A stretch of DNA of 64,000 nucleotides from an uncultured Acidobacteriaceae bacterium (lineage in GTDB: Bacteria > Acidobacteriota > Terriglobia > Terriglobales > Acidobacteriaceae), in contig CAVRWH010000008.1 of NCBI GenBank assembly GCA_963724855.1, positions 1,360 to 65,359 of the forward strand, in the 5' to 3' direction. Shown here one piece after another: positions 55,129 to 62,615 of the stretch (position 1 is the first letter of the stretch; each line of letters opens with the position of its first letter). The translations under genes and the position numbers were made by a program. The notes beneath the pieces were generated by a model. It made no database searches, was not told the origin of the DNA, and saw only the letters and a program-made list of their open reading frames with translations.

Positions 55129-56391
55129 ATGGCGTTACCCGGGGCCAAGCCGATGCCCCAGACCATCGCCGGTGTGGGCCGCACCATCGCCTTCAGTGAG
55201 TTCCTCGCGCAGGCGCTCGCCGCATTCCGTGCCGACAAGGTGCGCGCCACCATGACCGCCCTGGGCATGGTGATAGGGACCGGTTCTCTGATCCTGGTCG
55301 TTACCATCGCGCTGTCTGGCAAGCAGTACGTTCTTGCTCAAATCGAGAACATCGGTACCAACCTGATATGGGTCGAGTACCGCGGTCTGGTCAATGCCGG
55401 CGCCAGCACCTCGGTGCGCGATTACATCACCTTCGAAGACATGATCGCCGTCGAGCAAGCGGTGCCCGAGGTTAAGGCCGCTACTCCGGTCCTGAATCTG
55501 CACGAACGTATCAGCATCGGCGGCGGCAAGGAGAAGGAAGTCCTGATTCTCGGCGTCGACCCCTCTTACGAGCAGGTTCGCCGCATGATCGTGGTCGCGG
55601 GCCGCTTCTTCGACAACAGCGACTCTGACCAATTCAACAAGGTCTGTCTCATTACCCAGAAGTACGCCGAGGCTCACTATGGCGGGGCCGACCTCGCACT
55701 GGGGCAGGCCATCAAGATCACGGGCATTCCGTTTACCATCATCGGCGCTTTTCGCGAGAGCATGGAGACGTTCGGCCGCTCGGAAATCCAGGACGACACC
55801 ATCCTCATTCCCTACACCGTGGCCCGCCGCCTCACCGGCACCATAGCCATCAACCAGATTTACTTCACACTTTACAACTCCGAGAGCGTGCCGGCCGGCA
55901 CCAAAGAGATCCTGCGAGTCATCAAATCGCGCCATCGCCCCGAATCGCAATACAACGTCGACAACCTTACCGACGTGTTGCAGGTTGCCGAAAACACCGC
56001 CAATGCCTTTACGATGATCCTCCTGCTGTTCGCGGTGATCACGTTGATCGTGGGCGGAGTGGGCATCATGAACATCATGCTGGCGACGGTAAGCACGCGC
56101 ATCCGCGAAATCGGCATCCGCAAGGCCGTCGGCGCCACTCGCATGGAAATCGAGTTGCAGTTCCTCACCGAGGCCGTGCTGATTTCCCTTGTCGGAGGCA
56201 TCATCGGAACCGTGCTGGGCATGGCCATCCCATTTTCGCTGCGGCTCTTTACCGATAACTATCTTCCGGTTCCGTGGCTGGCCGCCGTGATAGCAATTGT
56301 GGTTTCCTGTTCCGTTGGAATCCTGTTTGGGACACTCCCTGCACGCCTGGCCGCCCGGCTCGATCCCATCGAGGCGCTGCGCCACGAATAA
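55129..56391 (+). CDS. MacB-type ABC transporter permease (MacB_PCD + FtsX domain), no adjacent ATPase
   Basis: TM1 (ALGMVIGTGSLILVVTIAL), a periplasmic core domain of about 230 aa, and an FtsX module (GGVGIMNIMLATVSTRIREIGIRKAVGATRMEIELQFLTEAV). It starts 6 nt after the preceding gene. Confidence 0.85.
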   Translation: MALPGAKPMPQTIAGVGRTIAFSEFLAQALAAFRADKVRATMTALGMVIGTGSLILVVTIALSGKQYVLAQIENIGTNLIWVEYRGLVNAGASTSVRDYITFEDMIAVEQAVPEVKAATPVLNLHERISIGGGKEKEVLILGVDPSYEQVRRMIVVAGRFFDNSDSDQFNKVCLITQKYAEAHYGGADLALGQAIKITGIPFTIIGAFRESMETFGRSEIQDDTILIPYTVARRLTGTIAINQIYFTLYNSESVPAGTKEILRVIKSRHRPESQYNVDNLTDVLQVAENTANAFTMILLLFAVITLIVGGVGIMNIMLATVSTRIREIGIRKAVGATRMEIELQFLTEAVLISLVGGIIGTVLGMAIPFSLRLFTDNYLPVPWLAAVIAIVVSCSVGILFGTLPARLAARLDPIEALRHE

Positions 56392-56433
56392 GCTGCTGCC
56401 ATCGCGGCTCTATATCCCTTCAGCGAAACTTGA

Positions 56434-57675
56434 TTAATTGCTGGAGCGCGCGGGACCGGTCGGACGCTTGGCTGGTACCGCGACGGTCTTGGACGCGGCA
56501 GCCCCGTTCCCGTTTTGCGGCGAGAAGATGAAGTCTTCGATCTCATCGATGCGCTTGTTGGCATCGTTGTATCCGATGTCGATGAGCGCGCGCGTATACC
56601 TCGGCGTGAACAGCAGGTAACTCATCAGGTCCGCGCAGGCCACCGAATCCCGTCCCAATCCGTTCATGAAGTACTGGATCAGGTACGGCATGTCTTTCTG
56701 GTACTGGCGCGCCAGTTCCGACAGGTCCACCGAGGGCGTTACCAGCAGGGTGGCCAAGGGACGCATCTGTTCGCACGTCTCCGCCCCCGTTTGGCTGATT
56801 TTTCCCTCGCGCAGCAGGTTGTTCAGGCGGTCGAGGTGCTCGATGTCCGAGGCCAGGTGGTCGAGAAACATCACGTTGAACAGCAACCCCATGACCTGTG
56901 CCAGAGAAGGTTCAACATCGTCAGACGCTTCTTCCTGATGCTCCAGGCTCTCGCCGCGGACGCCGATGCCAAAAATGCGTTCTGCGCCCAGACGAATAAT
57001 CGGACTCAGCGGCTGTTGCAGCCGCACACAACCATCGCCGAAGAACGCCGTGCCCTTCGCCGTCTTGAGCCGCACCGGCTGAAACACCAGCGGAATCGCC
57101 GCCGAGGCGCAGATGTGGTCGGTGGTGATCTTCGTCGCCAACGTGACACGGCGGCTGCGATTCCACATCGGATGCCCCTTCATCCCCTGAATGAAGAGGT
57201 AGCTCTTGCCCGAGTTGTAGTTGGTCGCCGAGATGGCGAGGGCATAGAGATACCCGCGCCGGATATTGTCTTGGATGCGGCTGGTGTCGAGGTGTGTCGC
57301 CAGAAAATGCCGCAACGGGGTAGCGTCCAGAAGCGAACGCGCATTGCCGCCGCCGAGCACGGCGCCAAACGAGAGGTCGAGGATCCAGGTCACCGAGTTG
57401 CGCGCCTGGGCCATCACATCGCAGCGGAAGATGTCGGAGGGTCGAAGTTCCGCCCAGAGTTTGGCCAGGATCCTCGTAACGATGGAGAACTCGTCGCATC
57501 CCACAGCCAGTCCGCAGCCGTTCACCGCCCCTGCGGAGGAGCCGCCGATGATTGGAAATGGATTGCCGTCCTCCTGAATACGCCGGATTTCTCCAATGCG
57601 CTTCAGTACACCGGCCTGGTAAGCGCCGCGGGCGCCGCCGCCCGTCATCACGAGTCCGAGCGCATTTTCTTGCAT
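56434..57675 (-). CDS. patatin-like phospholipase/lipase
   Basis: Oxyanion loop LVMTGGGARGAYQAG. Nucleophile elbow IIGGSSAGAVNG (GxSxG). A downstream DG-type region (FFGDGCV). ATG 57675 (MQENALG) is preferred. Confidence 0.85.
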   Translation of the reverse strand: MQENALGLVMTGGGARGAYQAGVLKRIGEIRRIQEDGNPFPIIGGSSAGAVNGCGLAVGCDEFSIVTRILAKLWAELRPSDIFRCDVMAQARNSVTWILDLSFGAVLGGGNARSLLDATPLRHFLATHLDTSRIQDNIRRGYLYALAISATNYNSGKSYLFIQGMKGHPMWNRSRRVTLATKITTDHICASAAIPLVFQPVRLKTAKGTAFFGDGCVRLQQPLSPIIRLGAERIFGIGVRGESLEHQEEASDDVEPSLAQVMGLLFNVMFLDHLASDIEHLDRLNNLLREGKISQTGAETCEQMRPLATLLVTPSVDLSELARQYQKDMPYLIQYFMNGLGRDSVACADLMSYLLFTPRYTRALIDIGYNDANKRIDEIEDFIFSPQNGNGAAASKTVAVPAKRPTGPARSSN

Positions 57676-57788
57676 TGTTCCTTCTCGTACTTGCCCCGGC
57701 ACGCCGGCGATTCTACTCGGAGTGAGCCCGCCTCGACAGTGACGCAGTATTCAGTTTCGATTTGATCGTTGACCGCCGCTTGTAGAGA

Positions 57789-57820
57789 GGACGTTCCGCC
57801 GGGGTTGCGGCGGAACGTCC
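57789..57820 (-). terminator. strong GC-rich hairpin downstream of the phasin-like gene (no U tract)
   Basis: Perfect 12-bp stem GGACGTTCCGCC (57789-57800) / GGCGGAACGTCC (57809-57820) with an 8-nt loop. It lies 64 nt after the stop codon of the minus-strand gene. Confidence 0.5.
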
Positions 57821-57883
57821 AGCTCTGCTTGGGTTACCCACCGGATCCCAGTCGGTTGAGTACCCGTCCATCTCGGTTCTCCG

Positions 57884-58795
57884 CTACGCGTTGACTGGAA
57901 TCACCCTCGGCTTCGCCGCGCGCGGACGCTTGCGCGCCGTGGGTTTCATCGTCTTCTTCGGCTCCGGACGCCGGGTCACCGACTCGATCACGGCCTTCTC
58001 CGCCTCTACGAAGCTGCGGAAGCCTTCCCGGGTCAGGTCCGGGATCTCGCGGTACGGGACCGTTGGCAACATCTTTGCAGCGGTTCCGGCAGCCTTCAGG
58101 CTGACGTGGACCTGGCGGGCTGCTACGTCCATCAACTTCTTCTGCACATCGATGAAGGTGTCAGCCGCTTCCTGTGCCAGCTTGGTCATTTCGGTCTTTT
58201 TGGCCTTGCTCACCGTCGTTTCCTTGCCGGCGGTCATCTTCGAGGTTTCCTCGGACACGATGTGCAGGAACTTCTTCTGCGCCTGCACGAAGTTCTCCAG
58301 GCCGCCGCGGGCCAGTTCGACCAGCGTATCGCCCTCGTACTCTTCGCCCGCTTTCACCGCACTCAGGCGCTCGTGCACCTGCTTGCCGGCGGCCTTCAGG
58401 TAATCCAACTGCATTTCAACGTAGGTGTCGATGCTGCGATGGATGGTGTTCATCAGCGCATCGGTGACGGCGTAGCCGCCAACCCGCTCCTTCAGACCGG
58501 TCGCCAGGATCTCGCTCTCCTGCTGGGCCAGCCCGAGCAGCAACTTCTGACCTTCGATGAAGTTCGCCAGGCCCTCGCCCGCAAACTCCTTAGCTACAGC
58601 CACCGGCTTGAAATCCGGCGCCGTGAGCTTTTCGCGCATGACGTCAATCACGGTCCCGTTCTGCCGCATTGCCAGGTCTACCAGGATGCGCTGCGTAGCG
58701 AAGAAATTCTCGACTCCCTGCTGCACCCAGCCTGACAGCAGATTGATGAAGGACGACTCCCGCGCCATAGGCTCGGATTTATATTCCTGCTTCAT
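57884..58795 (-). CDS. phasin-like amphipathic repeat protein (candidate lipid-body / granule coat protein)
   Basis: Five repeats with the signature [GA]xxxF[FIV]xxQ[KR]xL: GVENFFATQRIL, GLANFIEGQKLL, GLENFVQAQKKF, AADTFIDVQKKL, GFRSFVEAEKAV. No TM or signal peptide. K/R/P-rich C-terminal tail. Strong RBS (GAGGAGGAAATC-ATG). Confidence 0.5.
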   Translation of the reverse strand: MKQEYKSEPMARESSFINLLSGWVQQGVENFFATQRILVDLAMRQNGTVIDVMREKLTAPDFKPVAVAKEFAGEGLANFIEGQKLLLGLAQQESEILATGLKERVGGYAVTDALMNTIHRSIDTYVEMQLDYLKAAGKQVHERLSAVKAGEEYEGDTLVELARGGLENFVQAQKKFLHIVSEETSKMTAGKETTVSKAKKTEMTKLAQEAADTFIDVQKKLMDVAARQVHVSLKAAGTAAKMLPTVPYREIPDLTREGFRSFVEAEKAVIESVTRRPEPKKTMKPTARKRPRAAKPRVIPVNA

Positions 58796-59072
58796 GATTT
58801 CCTCCTCGATTGCTGCGTCGCAGCATTCAAGTAAACTCTAGTATTCTGCTGTTCCCGTGTCAAGAAGTATGTTGTGATTGTGCTTCGCAGCAGAGGGGAT
58901 CGCAGGCCGTGCCGCTGCAGCTGTCGATCGCGTTCCGCGCAACTTGAGCTGGCTCAAGCGGTTGCCGTCGGACGAGACGACGGCTGCACTGTCCCGGATT
59001 GGGAATGAACCTTGCGCCGACGGAGCTTGACACCGCCATACCCGCAGTCCACGATGCGGAAAGGTCCCTGTC

Positions 59073-59828
59073 ATGGCTGAAACCGTCAGTGTTGTGCAAC
59101 TCAAGCCCGAGACGCTCGACGCATTTTTGGCCTACGTTCGCGACGCCGAGGCCGCCATCCAGCCTTCGCTTGAGGGCAGCGCGCCTTTTCTGTGGACTGA
59201 CCTTAACCCCGACCGCGCGCGCCGCGTGCGTCAAGGCGACATTCCGGCGAGGCTATGGGCAGGTGATTCTCCGGTGCACGTTCCCAACGGCCTGATTCAC
59301 GACTGGGTTGGCGCGGTGCTCGTACCGCATACCACAATCGCGAAGACCCTCGCCCGCGTCCAGGACTACGACAACCACAAGAACATTTACCAGCCCGAGG
59401 TGATGGATTCGCAGCTTATCGGCCATCACGGCGACGACTTCACCATCTTTCTGCGTTTGCTGAAGAAGAAAATCATCACCGTAGTGATGGACACCTACCA
59501 TGATGTCCACTACCAGCGCGTTAGCGACAGTCAATGGTTCTTGCGCTCCTACACCACGCGGGCCTGTGAGGTGGATGACGCCGGGACGCCAAAGGAAAAG
59601 GTACATCCTCCCGATACCGGTTATGGATTTTTGTGGCGCTTGTATTCCTACTGGCGATTCAAGGAGGAAGCCGACGGCGTCATCGTCGAGTGCCGCGCCA
59701 TCTCGCTCACCCGCGACGTGCCGATGGGGCTCGGCTTCCTGGTCGCGCCCATCATCAAGAACCTGCCGCGCGAGTCGCTCATCAACACCCTGAAGGCAAC
59801 TCGCCAGGCGTTAAGCGGAGCGGCTTAA
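59073..59828 (+). CDS. START/SRPBCC-like (hydrophobic-ligand-binding fold) protein
   Basis: 251 aa. The pattern fits a helix-grip fold (..LIHDWVGAVLVPHTTIAKTLARVQDYDNHKNIY..FTIFLRLLKKKIITVVMDT..GFLWRLYSYWRFKEEADGVIVECRAISLTRDVP). The call rests on pattern recognition only. Confidence 0.4.
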   Translation: MAETVSVVQLKPETLDAFLAYVRDAEAAIQPSLEGSAPFLWTDLNPDRARRVRQGDIPARLWAGDSPVHVPNGLIHDWVGAVLVPHTTIAKTLARVQDYDNHKNIYQPEVMDSQLIGHHGDDFTIFLRLLKKKIITVVMDTYHDVHYQRVSDSQWFLRSYTTRACEVDDAGTPKEKVHPPDTGYGFLWRLYSYWRFKEEADGVIVECRAISLTRDVPMGLGFLVAPIIKNLPRESLINTLKATRQALSGAA

Positions 59829-59829
59829 C

Positions 59830-61446
59830 TCAATCTCCAGTCTGGGCCAGCGCACCGACCGGTAGGCTTTCCGCCTTGGGCCGGAAGGGAACCGCCTTCC
59901 GCACCGGCTGTTTACGCTTAGTCGGCGGCACAGCGACCGGAATCGTTCTCATTCTCGGTTTCGGTTTGGATGGGATTTCCGGAATCAGCCGCGGCCGTCT
60001 ATTCTTCCTTGCTGGCTGTTCCTCGGATTCCTTCGGCGAAGAATGAAGTGCCGCAGCACGCATCTCGGCGAAACTTTCGCGCAGCATCTCCTCAAAAATC
60101 TCAATGTCGGGCACCGCCGAGATGTCGCCGCCGAATCCAACATAGGCGACGCCGTTGTAGCTGAGAATAGCGACGTTTACGCCCATCTCGCCGCCGATTG
60201 GCACGTAGGGGTAGCAGCGCAGCAGCTTGTGGCCCAGAAGATACAGCGGAACCGGCGGTCCCGGAACGTTCGTGCAAATCATGTTCGCCAGACTCAGCGG
60301 CAGTTGCGTCAACACCGGCACCAGCTTCGCCTGCAGTGGCAGAGGCACCTTCGACACCAGCATGCCGAACATTCCCACCAGCTCGGGTACTCCGACGCTG
60401 CGCAGGAAGCCGATGCGTTCGCTGATGCGTGCCAGCAGGGTGCGCGGGTCGCTCACATCCAGCGGAGCATTGATCGGCATGAATGTGATGCGGTTGCCGA
60501 GCTCGGTTGCGTCTCCTTCGCCGCGGATATTGACCGGTATCACCAAGCGCAGATTGCGCCCGCTCAGGTGCACTCCGTGGTGCTTGGCATAGCGGCGCAC
60601 GGTGGACGTAATCACCGTCAGCACCACATCGTTCATGGTGCCGCCGCAGCGCTCGCGAATGGCCTTGATCTCATCCATGGGAAGCTCGCCCCATGCGATG
60701 TGCTGCGGTCCGCGGCAAATCTTGTTGAACGGCAACCGCTCCGACGGAGTCACCAGCTCGGGTACCAGCTCGACGATTTCCTCCGCATGGCCCTGCTGCG
60801 CGCTGGCCAACACCTCTTGCGCGATGTTCAGTACCTCGTTCTGCGCGGTAAGCGCACTCTGCATGAACGACTGGTACGACTTCAGCATCTGGTCGAGCAG
60901 CATGGCCAGCGAGTCGGTGGGCCTTGCCTGGGCAGCCTGCGGCTTGCGGCGCGGCGGCTTCTCCGGCGTCGGACTAGAGTCCAGCAGAGCATGCATGATT
61001 CCGACTCCCGACACTCCGTCGGCCATGCAGTGATGGATGCGGACGATGAAGCCCGTGCGGTTGTTCTTCAGTCCGCGGATCAGCGTGATGTCCCACAGCG
61101 GATGGTTGCGGTCCAGCGTCGAACTGATCACTTTCGCGGTCTCGGCCTTGAGGTCGCTGTCGGTGCCCTGTTTCAACACCACTTCGTGAACGTGGTTCCT
61201 GATGTCGAACTCGGGGTCCGGCTCCCATTGTGGTAGTCCGAGGTTGAAGGCCGGAAACACCGCCCGCTGCTTGTAGCGGGGGATCAGGACGAGCTTCGAT
61301 TCCACAAACTTCGCGCAGGCCTGTTTCGTGATCTTGCCCTCGAACTCGCAGCAAGACGCGATGTTGATGGGTTGGCCTTCGCGTTCCAGATACAGGAAGA
61401 ATGTGTCGCCCCACGAGAGCGGATGGGTGCGGTCGGATAATGACAT
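59830..61446 (-). CDS. wax ester synthase / acyl-CoA:diacylglycerol acyltransferase (WS/DGAT family)
   Basis: Active-site motif RIHHCMADGVSG (HHxxxDG). N-terminal LSWGDTFFLYLE and family-typical NVPGPPVPLYLLG near the C-terminus. It also has a K/R/P-rich C-terminal extension of about 75 aa. ATG 61446 (MSLSDR) is preferred over the ORF start at 61563. Confidence 0.9.
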   Translation of the reverse strand: MSLSDRTHPLSWGDTFFLYLEREGQPINIASCCEFEGKITKQACAKFVESKLVLIPRYKQRAVFPAFNLGLPQWEPDPEFDIRNHVHEVVLKQGTDSDLKAETAKVISSTLDRNHPLWDITLIRGLKNNRTGFIVRIHHCMADGVSGVGIMHALLDSSPTPEKPPRRKPQAAQARPTDSLAMLLDQMLKSYQSFMQSALTAQNEVLNIAQEVLASAQQGHAEEIVELVPELVTPSERLPFNKICRGPQHIAWGELPMDEIKAIRERCGGTMNDVVLTVITSTVRRYAKHHGVHLSGRNLRLVIPVNIRGEGDATELGNRITFMPINAPLDVSDPRTLLARISERIGFLRSVGVPELVGMFGMLVSKVPLPLQAKLVPVLTQLPLSLANMICTNVPGPPVPLYLLGHKLLRCYPYVPIGGEMGVNVAILSYNGVAYVGFGGDISAVPDIEIFEEMLRESFAEMRAAALHSSPKESEEQPARKNRRPRLIPEIPSKPKPRMRTIPVAVPPTKRKQPVRKAVPFRPKAESLPVGALAQTGD

Positions 61447-61721
61447 GGTGTCCCCTCTGCCGCCGGTAATCAGACCGGGCGCCTTTCGACCAGGCTGCGT
61501 CGAAGTCCGGTTGGTCCGGGAGTGCCCGTCCGCGCTGCATGACCCAACGCCAAGCTCGCACAAGAACGGACGGTACTACGATTCCACGATTCCTACGCTG
61601 ATTCAGTGAGAATGGTCACAATGCTTCGGTAATTTGACATTCCACGGCGACGGCGGTGCGTTCGACGAATGGCCCCTCGGCGCACGTTGGCCGCTGGCAG
61701 GGCATCAGATAACCTATAGCC

Positions 61722-62615
61722 ATGTCACCCAAGCTGCAGCAGGCGCTGGAACTGATCCACGAAGTCCGTCCCGAGGCCGTCAACGAGGCCCTCGGTTTGC
61801 TGCAGAACACGATCTACTCGTTCAGCATGAAGGTGTGCGGGCATCCCGAAGACGCAGAAGACACTATGCAGGACGTGCTGTTCAAGGCGCTGCCCTACCT
61901 CCCGAAATTTGAAAGCCCCGAAGCCCTCTCCGTTTGGCTGTACAAAGTGGCGCGCAACCGCTGCCTGATGAACCGGCGCGGCGCCAAGAATGCTGCCAGC
62001 AAGCATGTTTCGCTCGACGAGTTGATGCCCAGCACGCGCGACCTTGAGCACATGATGAATGTCGAGCGGCCTGATCCCGAACAGGCCCTGTTACGCAGCG
62101 AACGCGACGAGCGGGTGCGTGAGGCGGTGCAAAAAGTGCCTCCCCTGTATCGTATGACCCTGGTGTTGCACGACATGGAGGGGTTGAACACTGCCGAGGT
62201 GGCGCGCGTCACCGGCGTGCGCGAGGGCACGGTTCGGGTGCGGCTGCATCGCGCCCGGCTCATGATGCGCCGGCATCTTGAGCGCCTGGCCGAAGGCGAC
62301 CGCTTCCAGAGCAAGCGCATTCACACCCCCGCGAACGAAGAGCCGCCCATCCGTCCGCTGCGCTGCCGCAAGATGTTTGCCGAACTGTCCGACTACCTCG
62401 ACGGACTGGTGGCCGACTCCCGCCGCCGCGAGATGGAAAAGCACCTGGGAGACTGCAAGCCCTGCGTCGCCTTCCTCGACAGCTTGCAGTCTGCGGTAAA
62501 GCAGTGCCGCTCTTACGAACCCGTCTGCGACACCACCCGCGCCGCCGAATTGCGCAGGAACTTGGTCGAAAAGTATCAGGCGGCGGTTGCCGCCATGCCG
62601 CGAGCGAACGCTTAA
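61722..62615 (+). CDS. ECF-type sigma-70 factor fused to a C-terminal ZAS (zf-HC2) anti-sigma-like domain
   Basis: Region 2 (DAEDTMQDVLFKALPYLPKFESPEALSVWLYKVARNRCL). Region 4 (LYRMTLVLHDMEGLNTAEVARVTGVREGTVRVRLHRARLMM). Then, in the same polypeptide, C-RKMFAELSDYLDG...EKHLGDCKPC (C...HxxxCxxC). No TM segment. Confidence 0.85.
   Translation: MSPKLQQALELIHEVRPEAVNEALGLLQNTIYSFSMKVCGHPEDAEDTMQDVLFKALPYLPKFESPEALSVWLYKVARNRCLMNRRGAKNAASKHVSLDELMPSTRDLEHMMNVERPDPEQALLRSERDERVREAVQKVPPLYRMTLVLHDMEGLNTAEVARVTGVREGTVRVRLHRARLMMRRHLERLAEGDRFQSKRIHTPANEEPPIRPLRCRKMFAELSDYLDGLVADSRRREMEKHLGDCKPCVAFLDSLQSAVKQCRSYEPVCDTTRAAELRRNLVEKYQAAVAAMPRANA

What the first reader, a model, noticed from the sequence alone, without database searches (positions are those of the whole stretch)
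56434..61446. Compact module for neutral-lipid synthesis, coating, carriage and breakdown (WS/DGAT, phasin-like repeat protein, START-like protein, patatin lipase)
Seen: four adjacent genes.
- A WS/DGAT acyltransferase with an intact HHCMADG site.
- A 303-aa soluble protein built from five amphipathic repeats (GVENFFATQRIL, GLANFIEGQKLL, GLENFVQAQKKF, AADTFIDVQKKL, GFRSFVEAEKAV), with a very strong RBS.
- A START/SRPBCC-like protein.
- A patatin lipase with GxSxG (GSSAG).

Established: WS/DGAT enzymes make triacylglycerol and wax esters in Acinetobacter, Rhodococcus and Mycobacterium. Lipid bodies and PHA granules are coated by amphipathic phasin-like proteins. Patatin-like lipases mobilise acylglycerols.

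Inference: this is a self-contained lipid-body locus in a lineage (apparently Acidobacteriota) where storage-lipid biology is essentially uncharacterised. The repeat protein would be a new class of coat protein.
Basis: partly seen in the sequence, partly recalled or inferred. Interest (0 to 1): 0.6.

Follow-up and report, generated by a model that had tools for sequence, protein, structure and literature searches.

The report
PhaR-controlled phasin-like coat gene beside WS/DGAT
In uncultured soil Acidobacteria, the coat-protein and repressor pair that normally serves bioplastic (PHA) granules appears to have been duplicated and attached to a wax-ester/triacylglycerol synthase, which would be a native, regulated lipid-body system in a phylum where storage lipids are unstudied.

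Summary
The four genes exist at the stated coordinates: WS/DGAT, a START-fold protein, a 303-aa helical repeat protein and a patatin lipase.

Corrections to the observation:
- The repeat protein has six repeats, not five.
- The genes lie on both strands, in at least three transcription units.
- The locus is not self-contained.

What tools add:
- The repeat gene's promoter carries a PhaR-type operator, TGCTGC-RNY-GCAGCA. It is unique in this 4.2 Mb genome and present in 79 of 80 related species loci. A weaker second box lies upstream of the -35 box.
- In 64 of 70 loci outside this genus, a phaR gene sits divergently next to the repeat gene. In this genome phaR is on another contig with its own box.
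- No PHA synthase was found in this genome (92% complete).
- Nearly all genomes holding the repeat family carry WS/DGAT, against 12% of the phylum sample.
- Sister species hold a separate PHA locus: a second PhaR, a short homologue in the phasin position (hhalign 99%) and a class III PhaC.

Reading, about 0.6: a PhaR/phasin circuit re-used for neutral-lipid bodies. All evidence is in silico and all carriers are uncultured MAGs. The product (TAG or wax ester) is unknown.

The scan noted the six-repeat protein before in another genome (e1-3056883).

The parts
59830..61446 (-). WS/DGAT-family O-acyltransferase (538 aa) with HHCMADG at residue 138 and a 72-aa Lys/Arg/Pro-rich C-terminal tail
   Evidence: PF03007 and PF06974 are above cut-off, and TIGR02946 scores 314 bits. 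Motif and tail were checked. It is the only WS/DGAT found in the genome. Orthologues align from residue 1 of this ATG start.
59073..59828 (+). START/SRPBCC-fold protein (251 aa) with no signal peptide, divergent from the repeat gene
   Evidence: No Pfam or NCBIfam hit. AF2 pLDDT 92.4. Foldseek 3qsz E 1.3e-8, plus CERT and STARD10. Orthologues lie in 50 of 80 related loci.
58878..58892 (-). Upstream, weaker PhaR-type box (BS1), TGCTGCGAAGCACAA, just upstream of the -35 box
   Evidence: Read. It is a conserved block TG.TGC...GCA.AA in the footprint of 80 promoters. Its position matches BS1 of the R. eutropha phaP1 promoter (PMC12849132).
58835..58863 (-). Sigma-70-type promoter, TTGACA-17-TAGAGT
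   Evidence: It is the only promoter-like site in 56000-62000, matching 10 of 12 positions. Both hexamers are conserved in 80 loci.
58811..58825 (-). PhaR-type operator (BS2): the perfect palindrome TGCTGC-GAC-GCAGCA, between the -10 box and the RBS
   Evidence: Unique in the 4.2 Mb genome, with 0.11 expected. Present at -26 to -29 in 24 of 24 orthologues and paralogues and in 79 of 80 species loci. It fits the published PhaR cores TGCRNYGCA and YGCRNYGCR.
57884..58795 (-). Six-repeat, all-helical, phasin-like protein (303 aa) with a basic 29-aa tail; RBS GAGGAGG at 58801-58807
   Evidence: Six repeats. Six helices in the model, pLDDT 62.8. Four of the six helices are strongly amphipathic, z 2.6-3.7. 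hhalign against the phasin-position proteins of PHA operons gives probability 99%, E 9e-18. The tail has a net charge of +5 or more in 36 of 49 relatives.
57789..57820 (-). GC-rich hairpin with a 13-bp stem, about 65 nt after the repeat gene's stop; possible terminator or attenuator before patatin
   Evidence: Fold of the region gives -52 kcal/mol, z -2.8. Coordinates. The consensus terminator scan did not call it, because the U-tract is weak.
56434..57702 (-). Patatin-like lipase (422 aa) with GGGARG, GSSAG and DGC
   Evidence: PF01734 E 1.9e-21. Motifs. Not a CBASS lipase: 36 bits against a cut-off of 200. Adjacent in 15 of 15 same-genus genomes and in 17 of 70 other loci at 68-76% identity.

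Best explanation
The 303-aa protein is a phasin-type surface protein for neutral-lipid inclusions (triacylglycerol and/or wax ester) made by the neighbouring WS/DGAT. Its gene is controlled by a PhaR-family repressor.

Proposed mechanism; every step is inferred from known PhaR/phasin and MLDS/MLDSR systems:
1. When no inclusions are present, PhaR (encoded at G000:C5:42733-43326) binds the two boxes that flank the strong promoter of the repeat gene. It also binds a box before its own gene.
2. When WS/DGAT starts to deposit hydrophobic ester, PhaR is titrated onto the new surface.
3. The repeat gene is then derepressed. Its product, made in quantity, covers the droplet with six amphipathic helices.
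4. The basic tail may tether droplets to the nucleoid.
5. The patatin lipase and an alpha/beta hydrolase are candidate mobilising enzymes. The START-fold protein is a candidate lipid carrier.

Evolutionary reading: a PhaR-plus-phasin pair from a class III/IV PHA locus was duplicated. The phasin copy was lengthened from about four repeats to six plus a tail. This duplicate pair became attached to WS/DGAT. The window's genome keeps only the lipid-linked copy.
For: Linkage to WS/DGAT:
- In a 301-genome phylum sample, 10 of the 11 genomes with the repeat family have WS/DGAT, against 25 of the other 290.
- The two genes are 1-2 kb apart in families f20, f32 and f40.
- Second copies of the repeat gene sit by second WS/DGAT copies.
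- Among 80 species loci, WS/DGAT lies within 6 kb in 42. Of 36 other genomes checked, 33 carry it elsewhere.

PhaR control:
- The operator is unique in this genome and conserved in 79 of 80 loci.
- Footprinting of 80 promoters leaves only box 1, -35, -10, box 2 and the RBS conserved.
- The box fits the published PhaR motifs and the two-site layout.
- phaR is divergently adjacent in 64 of 70 loci outside the genus.
- This genome's phaR scores 99.7 bits on PF07879 and has a box 14 nt before its ATG.

Not PHA:
- Neither PhaC_N nor a class III PhaC homologue was found in this genome, nor in nine other genomes with the repeat family that are 99-100% complete.
- No PhaC-like gene lies in any of the 80 loci.

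Phasin kinship:
- In sister species and in G198, a short homologue lies in the order PhaR2 / short protein / PhaR(Bmeg)-like subunit / class III PhaC, with the same promoter-and-box layout.
- hhalign of the long family against the short family gives 99%, E 9e-18.
- 17 of 49 members give weak Phasin_2 hits, 9 give PhaE hits and 9 give ApoB100_C hits.

Physical features:
- Amphipathic helices, strong promoter and RBS, basic tail.

Precedents:
- Phasin PhaP1 binds TAG inclusions when expressed heterologously (PMC6273058).
- In Rhodococcus, MLDS/MLDSR is a droplet-titrated repressor plus a coat protein with a Lys-rich DNA-binding tail (PMC5504291).
Against: - There is no experimental datum.
- No curated phasin model is matched at its cut-off. 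hhalign against one true Phasin_2 protein gave probability 0.2%.
- The structure model has only moderate confidence and Foldseek found nothing significant.
- 15 of 50 genomes with the long form also carry a class III-type PhaC, so cross-use on PHA granules cannot be excluded in those species.
- This genome is 92% complete, so a missed PHA locus is possible.
- Distant WS/DGAT-linked short forms (f20, f32, f40) lack the PhaR box.
- That PhaR can sense a lipid surface is an assumption.
Confidence: 0.6

Rival explanations
1. The repeat protein is an ordinary PHA phasin. It coats PHA granules made by a synthase that is unlinked or missing from this assembly, and its position near WS/DGAT is incidental.
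For: The family is homologous to phasin-position proteins of PHA operons. It uses a PhaR operator. 15 of 50 genomes with the long form do carry a class III-type PhaC. This genome is 92.4% complete.
Against: No PhaC was found in this genome by three searches, nor in nine genomes with the family that are 99-100% complete. Where a PHA locus exists, it has its own short paralogue and its own PhaR paralogue. The long form stays with WS/DGAT.
Confidence: 0.07
2. The protein is not a passive coat. It is a scaffold or activator of WS/DGAT, and/or a nucleoid tether, in the manner of PhaM or PhaF for PHA synthase. The similar basic tails place enzyme and partner on DNA.
For: Both WS/DGAT and the repeat protein end in Lys/Arg/Pro-rich tails that share an R-x-IPV stretch. 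The tail is basic in 36 of 49 relatives. Gene adjacency is tight. MLDS tethers droplets to DNA through a Lys-rich tail.
Against: A very strong promoter and RBS, together with PhaR-type repression, are typical of an abundant structural phasin. No interaction data exist. This reading overlaps with the best explanation rather than excluding it.
Confidence: 0.15
3. The cluster handles esters other than storage TAG. Candidates are steryl or other polycyclic-alcohol esters, or esters of short alcohols. The START-fold protein would carry the alcohol substrate and the hydrolases would act as esterases.
For: A GMC oxidoreductase that scores as cholesterol oxidase (NF058674, 901 bits, cut-off 850) flanks phaR in this genome and flanks WS/DGAT in at least 9 related loci. 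A true AdhE (NF010378, 1139 bits) is adjacent in at least 8 loci. The START fold resembles sterol and ceramide carriers.
Against: WS/DGAT enzymes are best known for TAG and wax esters. No sterol synthesis genes were examined. GMC and AdhE are absent from this window. The acceptor specificity of this enzyme is unknown.
Confidence: 0.12
4. The repeat protein has no link to inclusions. It would be, for example, a stress or membrane-associated helical protein in a PhaR-type global regulon (PhaR/AniA controls many genes in rhizobia).
For: The PhaR regulon in S. meliloti extends well beyond PHB genes. Fold searches return only generic membrane-curving helical proteins.
Against: The family's presence is nested almost perfectly within genomes that carry WS/DGAT or PhaC, and the gene lies next to the synthase gene.
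Confidence: 0.06

Closest known systems
PhaR/PhaP (phasin) autoregulatory circuit of PHA granules (Cupriavidus necator, Paracoccus, Sinorhizobium)
   Same: - A PhaR-family regulator is present (PF07879).
- The operator core is TGC-RNY-GCA.
- Two sites flank the promoter, and a box precedes phaR itself.
- The target gene is strongly expressed and encodes an amphipathic helical protein.
- Homologues occupy the phasin position of PHA operons.
   Different: - The partner enzyme is WS/DGAT, not PhaC, and no PHA synthase was found in this genome.
- The protein matches no curated phasin model.
- It has six repeats and a basic tail.
- PhaR scores 100 bits on TIGR01848, just under the cut-off of 109.
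MLDS/MLDSR of Rhodococcus jostii RHA1 (PMC5504291); TadA/HBHA of Rhodococcus and mycobacteria (PMC6176652, abstract seen)
   Same: Like MLDS, it would be a major lipid-droplet protein with a Lys-rich C-terminal tail, whose gene is controlled by a repressor that droplets titrate away from a palindromic operator.
   Different: - The regulator family differs: MLDSR is an XRE-type HTH protein, this one is PhaR.
- The operator differs.
- No sequence comparison with MLDS or TadA was made here.
- The phylum differs (Actinomycetota).
- Those systems are experimentally shown; this one is predicted.
PhaF / PhaM (phasin-like proteins with histone-like tails that tie PHA granules to the nucleoid); recalled from memory, not tested
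   Same: An amphipathic helical N-terminal part followed by an Ala/Lys/Pro-rich basic tail.
   Different: They serve PHA granules. No homology was tested. The tail here is short (29 aa) and rich in Arg and Pro.
Eukaryotic droplet set: perilipins or apolipoprotein-type repeats with the patatin-domain lipase ATGL
   Same: Tandem amphipathic helical repeats as a droplet coat, with a patatin-domain lipase in the same functional set. Nine family members give weak ApoB100_C hits and ApoA-I appears among the weak fold matches.
   Different: This is analogy only. None of these matches is significant.

Membership tests
[quoted passage not shown] | Catalytic and C-terminal domains score above the curated cut-offs | tested here: met
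   PF03007 146.3 bits (cut-off 23.6). PF06974 78.6 bits (cut-off 20.7). TIGR02946 314.1 bits (cut-off 309.95)..
[quoted passage not shown] | Active-site motif HHxxxDG | tested here: met
   HHCMADG at residue 138.
[quoted passage not shown] | Makes TAG and/or wax ester | not testable with these tools
   Needs an enzyme assay or lipid analysis. Searches for fatty acyl-CoA reductase domains were uninformative.
Patatin-like lipase (PF01734) | Domain above cut-off, with a Gly-rich oxyanion motif, GxSxG serine and DG[AG]-type aspartate | tested here: met
   77.6 bits (cut-off 27.7). GGGARG at 21, GSSAG at 54, and DGC at 223 in place of DGA/DGG. Substrate unknown.
START / SRPBCC superfamily | Match to a sequence model (START, Polyketide_cyc2 and related) | tested here: not met
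   No such Pfam or NCBIfam hit, even at E 10.
START / SRPBCC superfamily | Helix-grip fold with a long C-terminal helix over a curved sheet | tested here: met
   AF2 pLDDT 92.4. Foldseek probability 1.00 to 3qsz, CERT, STARD10 and aromatase/cyclases, best E 1.3e-8.
Phasin_2 (PF09361) and other curated phasin models | Score above the gathering cut-off | tested here: not met
   The window protein gives no hit. 17 of 49 relatives hit only weakly, best E 3.8e-5; the two examined scored 19.4 and 14.2 bits against a cut-off of 24.9. hhalign against the one true Phasin_2 found in the phylum gave probability 0.2%.
Phasin in the operational sense (granule-coat gene of a storage-polymer locus) | Encoded next to the synthase and the PhaR regulator; homologous to proteins at the phasin position of a PHA operon | tested here: met
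   hhalign 99%, E 9e-18, to short proteins in loci ordered PhaR / short protein / PhaR(Bmeg)-like / class III PhaC. The long form lies next to WS/DGAT and PhaR.
Phasin in the operational sense (granule-coat gene of a storage-polymer locus) | Binds the surface of the inclusion and is abundant there | not testable with these tools
   Only amphipathicity and strong expression signals could be shown.
PhaR regulon member | Palindromic operator with core TGC-RNY-GCA placed at the promoter | tested here: met
   TGCTGCGACGCAGCA lies between the -10 box and the RBS, with a second box upstream of the -35 box.
PhaR regulon member | A PhaR protein is encoded in the genome | tested here: met
   G000:C5:42733-43326. 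PF07879 99.7 bits (cut-off 25). TIGR01848 100.1 bits (cut-off 109.45, so below equivalog level)..
PhaR regulon member | PhaR binds the site and is released by the inclusion | not testable with these tools
   Needs EMSA and droplet-competition assays.
MLDS / TadA (actinobacterial droplet proteins) | Sequence homology | not tested
Only the basic tail and the regulatory logic resemble them.

The most novel reading that the evidence does not exclude
Terriglobia carry two parallel, paralogous circuits, each made of a repressor and a coat protein. One serves PHA granules: PhaR2, a short phasin and a class III/IV PhaC. The other serves neutral-lipid bodies: PhaR1, the six-repeat protein and WS/DGAT. 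PhaR-family regulators would then be general sensors of hydrophobic inclusions rather than PHA-specific ones. That would give the first native phasin/PhaR system for bacterial lipid droplets. It would also mean that PhaR counts in soil surveys do not report PHA capacity.
Probability: 0.45. Interest if true: 0.8.

Novelty: new variant of a known kind. Interest (0 to 1): 0.68.

Why it matters
- **Open field.** Neutral-lipid storage in Acidobacteriota is described as unexplored (PMC10351704). A 2016 review states that bacterial TAG inclusions have no specific abundant proteins (PMC6273058).
- **Testable handle.** This locus gives a defined coat-protein candidate, a 15-bp operator and a regulator. 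All can be tested in laboratory hosts without culturing the organism.
- **Evolution.** It suggests how a storage-organelle toolkit is re-used when the stored compound changes.
- **Soil surveys.** A soil-carbon survey used PhaR (pfam07879) as a proxy for PHA producers and counted 16% of Acidobacteria (bioRxiv 10.1101/2024.12.02.626346). In this genome PhaR occurs with WS/DGAT and without any PHA synthase found, so that proxy would misassign such genomes.
- **Practical use.** A natural droplet anchor and a droplet-responsive promoter could be useful for lipid-body display or oleochemical strains.

Tried and rejected
- **Pfam and NCBIfam** on the repeat and START proteins gave nothing usable.
- **PDB profile search** with the family alignment gave nothing below E 0.078.
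- **Foldseek** on the repeat-protein model returned only generic long-helix proteins such as BAR domains and eisosome proteins, E 0.1 or worse. I treat this as uninformative because pLDDT is 62.8.
- **hhalign against one true Phasin_2** gave no relation. Canonical Phasin_2 is nearly absent from the phylum sample, 1 of 201 genomes above cut-off, so no proper Phasin_2 alignment could be built.
- **The short pattern CTGCNNNGCAG** is not enriched in the window: 2 found, 2.55 expected. Significance rests on the 15-mer, its position and its conservation.
- **Mid-session change of view.** I first concluded that START and patatin were genus-only neighbours, from the 301-genome samples. The 80-locus scan then showed that their orthologues recur in the cluster in other clades.
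- **PF07993 and PF03015**, tried as markers of fatty acyl-CoA reductase, were useless. The first matches every control genome and the second matches none. TAG versus wax ester stays open.
- **The search for related loci** with the full alignment failed for lack of a conserved stretch. It worked with a narrower alignment.
- **PhaR boxes** were not found upstream of WS/DGAT or patatin in the window.

Full report
**1. What is in the sequence**

ORF listing and family scans give these genes:
- Patatin-like lipase, 56434-57702 (-). PF01734, E 1.9e-21.
- A 303-aa protein, 57884-58795 (-), with no family hit.
- A 251-aa protein, 59073-59828 (+), with no family hit.
- WS/DGAT, 59830-61446 (-). PF03007 and PF06974 match, and TIGR02946 scores 314 bits against a cut-off of 310. 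HHCMADG is at residue 138.

The flanking genes are a MacB-type permease, two EamA-like half genes, an ECF sigma factor with a zinc-finger anti-sigma motif, and OsmC.

The four genes lie on both strands, so they form at least three transcription units:
- WS/DGAT converges on the 251-aa gene.
- The 251-aa gene diverges from the 303-aa gene across a 277-bp spacer.
- Patatin follows the 303-aa gene after 181 bp. That gap contains a hairpin with a 13-bp GC-rich stem.

**2. The repeat protein**

- A sixth repeat, SIDTYVEMQLDYL near residue 120, completes a series with a period of about 46 residues. The consensus of 49 relatives shows six units.
- AlphaFold with that alignment gives six long helices and a disordered tail. 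Mean pLDDT is 62.8.
- Helices 3 to 6 have hydrophobic moments 2.6 to 3.7 sd above shuffled sequence.
- The last 29 residues carry 11 Lys/Arg and 6 Pro. In 36 of 49 relatives the last 30 residues have a net charge of +5 or more.
- The family is small: 318 clusters at 50% identity in 1.8 billion proteins. Sources call its members hypothetical proteins.
- Foldseek and a PDB profile search gave nothing significant.

**3. The 251-aa protein**

With a 32-sequence alignment the model is confident, pLDDT 92.4. It matches START/SRPBCC structures at probability 1.00. The best hit is the Xanthomonas StAR-related lipid transfer protein 3qsz, E 1.3e-8. CERT, STARD10 and polyketide cyclases follow.

**4. 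Linkage to WS/DGAT**

- The order WS/DGAT, START, repeat, patatin, MacB is kept in 15 of 15 genomes of the same genus. These genomes are close kin.
- More telling, second copies of the repeat gene (47-51% identical) lie next to second WS/DGAT copies in three of those genomes.
- In an even sample of 301 genomes of the phylum, the family profile matched 11 genomes and WS/DGAT matched 35.
- Ten of the 11 family-positive genomes have WS/DGAT, against 25 of the other 290.
- In three other taxonomic families a short form of about 200 aa lies 1-2 kb from WS/DGAT on the same strand. That operon also holds an acyl-CoA synthetase, GNAT genes and an alpha/beta hydrolase.
- A scan of species-representative genomes returned 365 related loci. 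The best 80 are all uncultured Terriglobia MAGs.
- WS/DGAT lies within 6 kb in 42 of those 80. Of 36 further genomes checked, 33 carry it elsewhere, often just beyond the fetched flank.

**5. A PhaR-type control region**

- Upstream of the repeat gene lies the only sigma-70-like promoter in 56000-62000: TTGACA, 17 nt, TAGAGT.
- Between the -10 box and the RBS sits a perfect palindrome, TGCTGC-GAC-GCAGCA, at 58811-58825.
- This 15-mer, with the centre allowed to be RNY, occurs once in the 4.2 Mb genome. 0.11 occurrences are expected.
- It stands 26-29 nt before the ATG in all 24 orthologues and paralogues examined, and within 200 bp upstream in 79 of 80 species loci.
- The arms are constant while the three central bases vary within R-N-Y.
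- An alignment of 80 distinct promoters conserves only six blocks: an upstream box (TG.TGC...GCA.AA), the -35 box, the -10 box, the 15-mer, GGAGG and the ATG.
- The core fits published PhaR sites:
  - YTKNTGCRNYGCANMAR in Ralstonia eutropha. [quoted passage not shown]
  - YGCRNYGCR in Sinorhizobium meliloti, validated by gel shifts (PMC12542648).

**6. The regulator**

- In 64 of 70 loci outside this genus, a PhaR-family gene lies 110-170 bp from the repeat gene and is divergently transcribed, so the boxes sit in the shared spacer. The G187 example scores E 7e-29 on PF07879.
- The commonest full order is: GMC oxidoreductase, WS/DGAT, START, patatin, PhaR, boxes, repeat gene, alpha/beta hydrolase.
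- In the window's genus this cluster is split.
- In this genome phaR is at G000:C5:42733-43326 (PF07879 99.7 bits). It is 53% identical to the WS/DGAT-linked PhaR of G187.
- It has its own box, TTGTGCACTGCAGCA, 14 nt before its ATG.
- Beside it are an alpha/beta hydrolase and a GMC oxidoreductase. The hydrolase is 52% identical to the one that follows WS/DGAT in a distant family.
- The window's locus is therefore not self-contained.

**7. PHA or neutral lipid?**

- This genome (92.4% complete) gave no PhaC_N match, no homologue of a class III PhaC and no Phasin_2 match.
- Nine other family-positive genomes that are 99-100% complete also lack PhaC_N.
- The one family-positive genome without WS/DGAT (G198) has its short homologue next to a class III-type PhaC (TIGR01836, 331 bits) and a Bacillus-type PhaR subunit. 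The same box lies upstream.
- Four sister species of the window's genus carry that PHA locus as well as the WS/DGAT locus. Its order is: a second PhaR (37-40% identical to the first), the short protein, the subunit, PhaC. Its promoter carries TGTTGC-RNY-GCAGCA.
- Profile comparison of the long and short families gives probability 99%, E 9e-18, over repeats 1-4.
- Of 50 genomes with the long form, 15 also have a class III-type PhaC.
- So two paralogous circuits exist, each beside its own synthase. The window's genome holds only the one tied to WS/DGAT.

**8. START and patatin as members**

- In the phylum sample, START homologues occur in 61 genomes, and 57 of these lack WS/DGAT. Many of these distant homologues start with signal peptides.
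- Full-length patatin homologues occur in 38 genomes, 12 of them with WS/DGAT, and none is adjacent to it.
- Close orthologues are different. START at 57-69% identity is in the cluster in 40 of 70 non-genus loci. Patatin at 68-76% identity is in the cluster in 17 of 70. Both appear in another order and orientation than in the window.
- They are therefore recurrent but dispensable members. PhaR (64 of 70) and the alpha/beta hydrolase (58 of 70) are more constant.

**9. Mechanism**

Shown by computation:
- gene linkage;
- the operator and its conservation;
- the presence of PhaR;
- no PhaC found;
- homology to phasin-position proteins;
- amphipathic helices.

Inferred:
- PhaR represses the gene and is titrated away by nascent hydrophobic inclusions.
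- The protein coats those inclusions.
- The tail binds DNA.
- Patatin and the hydrolase mobilise the lipid.
- The START protein carries a lipid.

Precedents:
- PhaP1 binds TAG inclusions when expressed heterologously.
- The MLDS/MLDSR pair of Rhodococcus works this way.
- From memory, PhaR also binds hydrophobic polymers non-specifically.

The product (TAG, wax ester or another ester) is not determined.

**10. Comparison and novelty**

- The system works like the PhaR/phasin circuit and like MLDS/MLDSR.
- It fails the curated Phasin_2 test. I therefore do not file it as a member of that Pfam family.
- It is a member of an unannotated acidobacterial family whose short branch sits in PHA operons.
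- I found no paper in the held library that links PhaR or a native phasin to WS/DGAT. Neutral-lipid storage in Acidobacteriota is called unexplored.
- I rate it a new variant of a known kind. Interest is 0.68 and confidence in the main reading is 0.6.

**11. Limits**

- Every carrier is an uncultured MAG.
- Kin are not independent, so the counts overstate the evidence.
- The repeat-protein model has moderate confidence.
- Another first-stage note (e1-3056883) independently described a 306-aa, six-repeat protein with an Arg/Lys tail in another genome. This agrees with the six-repeat count found here.

Noticed in passing
G000:C5:43392-45068 (own genome, outside the window); L089, L100, L106, L109, L110, L112, L117: A cytoplasmic GMC oxidoreductase scores as cholesterol oxidase (NF058674, 901 bits, cut-off 850). 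It lies beside phaR in this genome and beside WS/DGAT in at least 9 related loci. Together with the START-fold gene, this raises the possibility of sterol-like or other alcohol substrates.
   Followed up: partly
L068:3383-6250, L069, L070, L133, L136, L142, L152, L157-L160; own genome C6:944354-946936: A true bifunctional AdhE (NF010378, 1139 bits) lies next to WS/DGAT or the repeat gene in at least 8 loci but is unlinked in this genome. It may reflect a link to low-oxygen redox balance, or a supply of alcohol for ester synthesis.
   Followed up: partly
window 59830-60045 and 57884-57970: WS/DGAT carries a 72-aa C-terminal extension with 17 Lys/Arg and 14 Pro. It shares an R-x-IPV stretch with the repeat protein's tail (RTIPV and RVIPV). 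Patatin ends in a milder Pro/Ala/Lys stretch. This could be a common targeting or DNA-binding tail.
   Followed up: partly
L161-L164 (G007, G014, G005, G013) and L071 (G198): A compact PHA locus in sister species has the order PhaR paralogue, unannotated 193-aa phasin-position protein, Bacillus-type PhaR subunit, class III-type PhaC. Its promoter carries TGTTGC-RNY-GCAGCA. The 193-aa family has no Pfam or NCBIfam model.
   Followed up: yes
L063-L067 (families f20, f32, f40): Distant Acidobacteriota hold an operon with an acyl-CoA synthetase, a short phasin-like protein, one or two GNAT acetyltransferases, an F420H2_quin_red-like 146-aa protein, WS/DGAT and an alpha/beta hydrolase. It has no PhaR box.
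   Followed up: partly
window 57789-57820: A perfect 13-bp GC-rich hairpin lies between the repeat gene and patatin. It has only a weak U-tract, so the consensus terminator scan missed it. It could set the ratio of coat to lipase transcripts.
   Followed up: partly
L039, L040, L042, L054, L059, L061; own genome C2:661418-662134: Many distant homologues of the START-fold protein begin with apparent signal peptides, while the cluster-linked copies do not. This genome also has a 39%-identical paralogue elsewhere.
   Followed up: no
whole genome G000: This genome has PhaR but no PHA synthase was found in it. Surveys that use pfam07879 as a proxy for PHA producers (bioRxiv 10.1101/2024.12.02.626346) would count such Acidobacteria wrongly.
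   Followed up: partly
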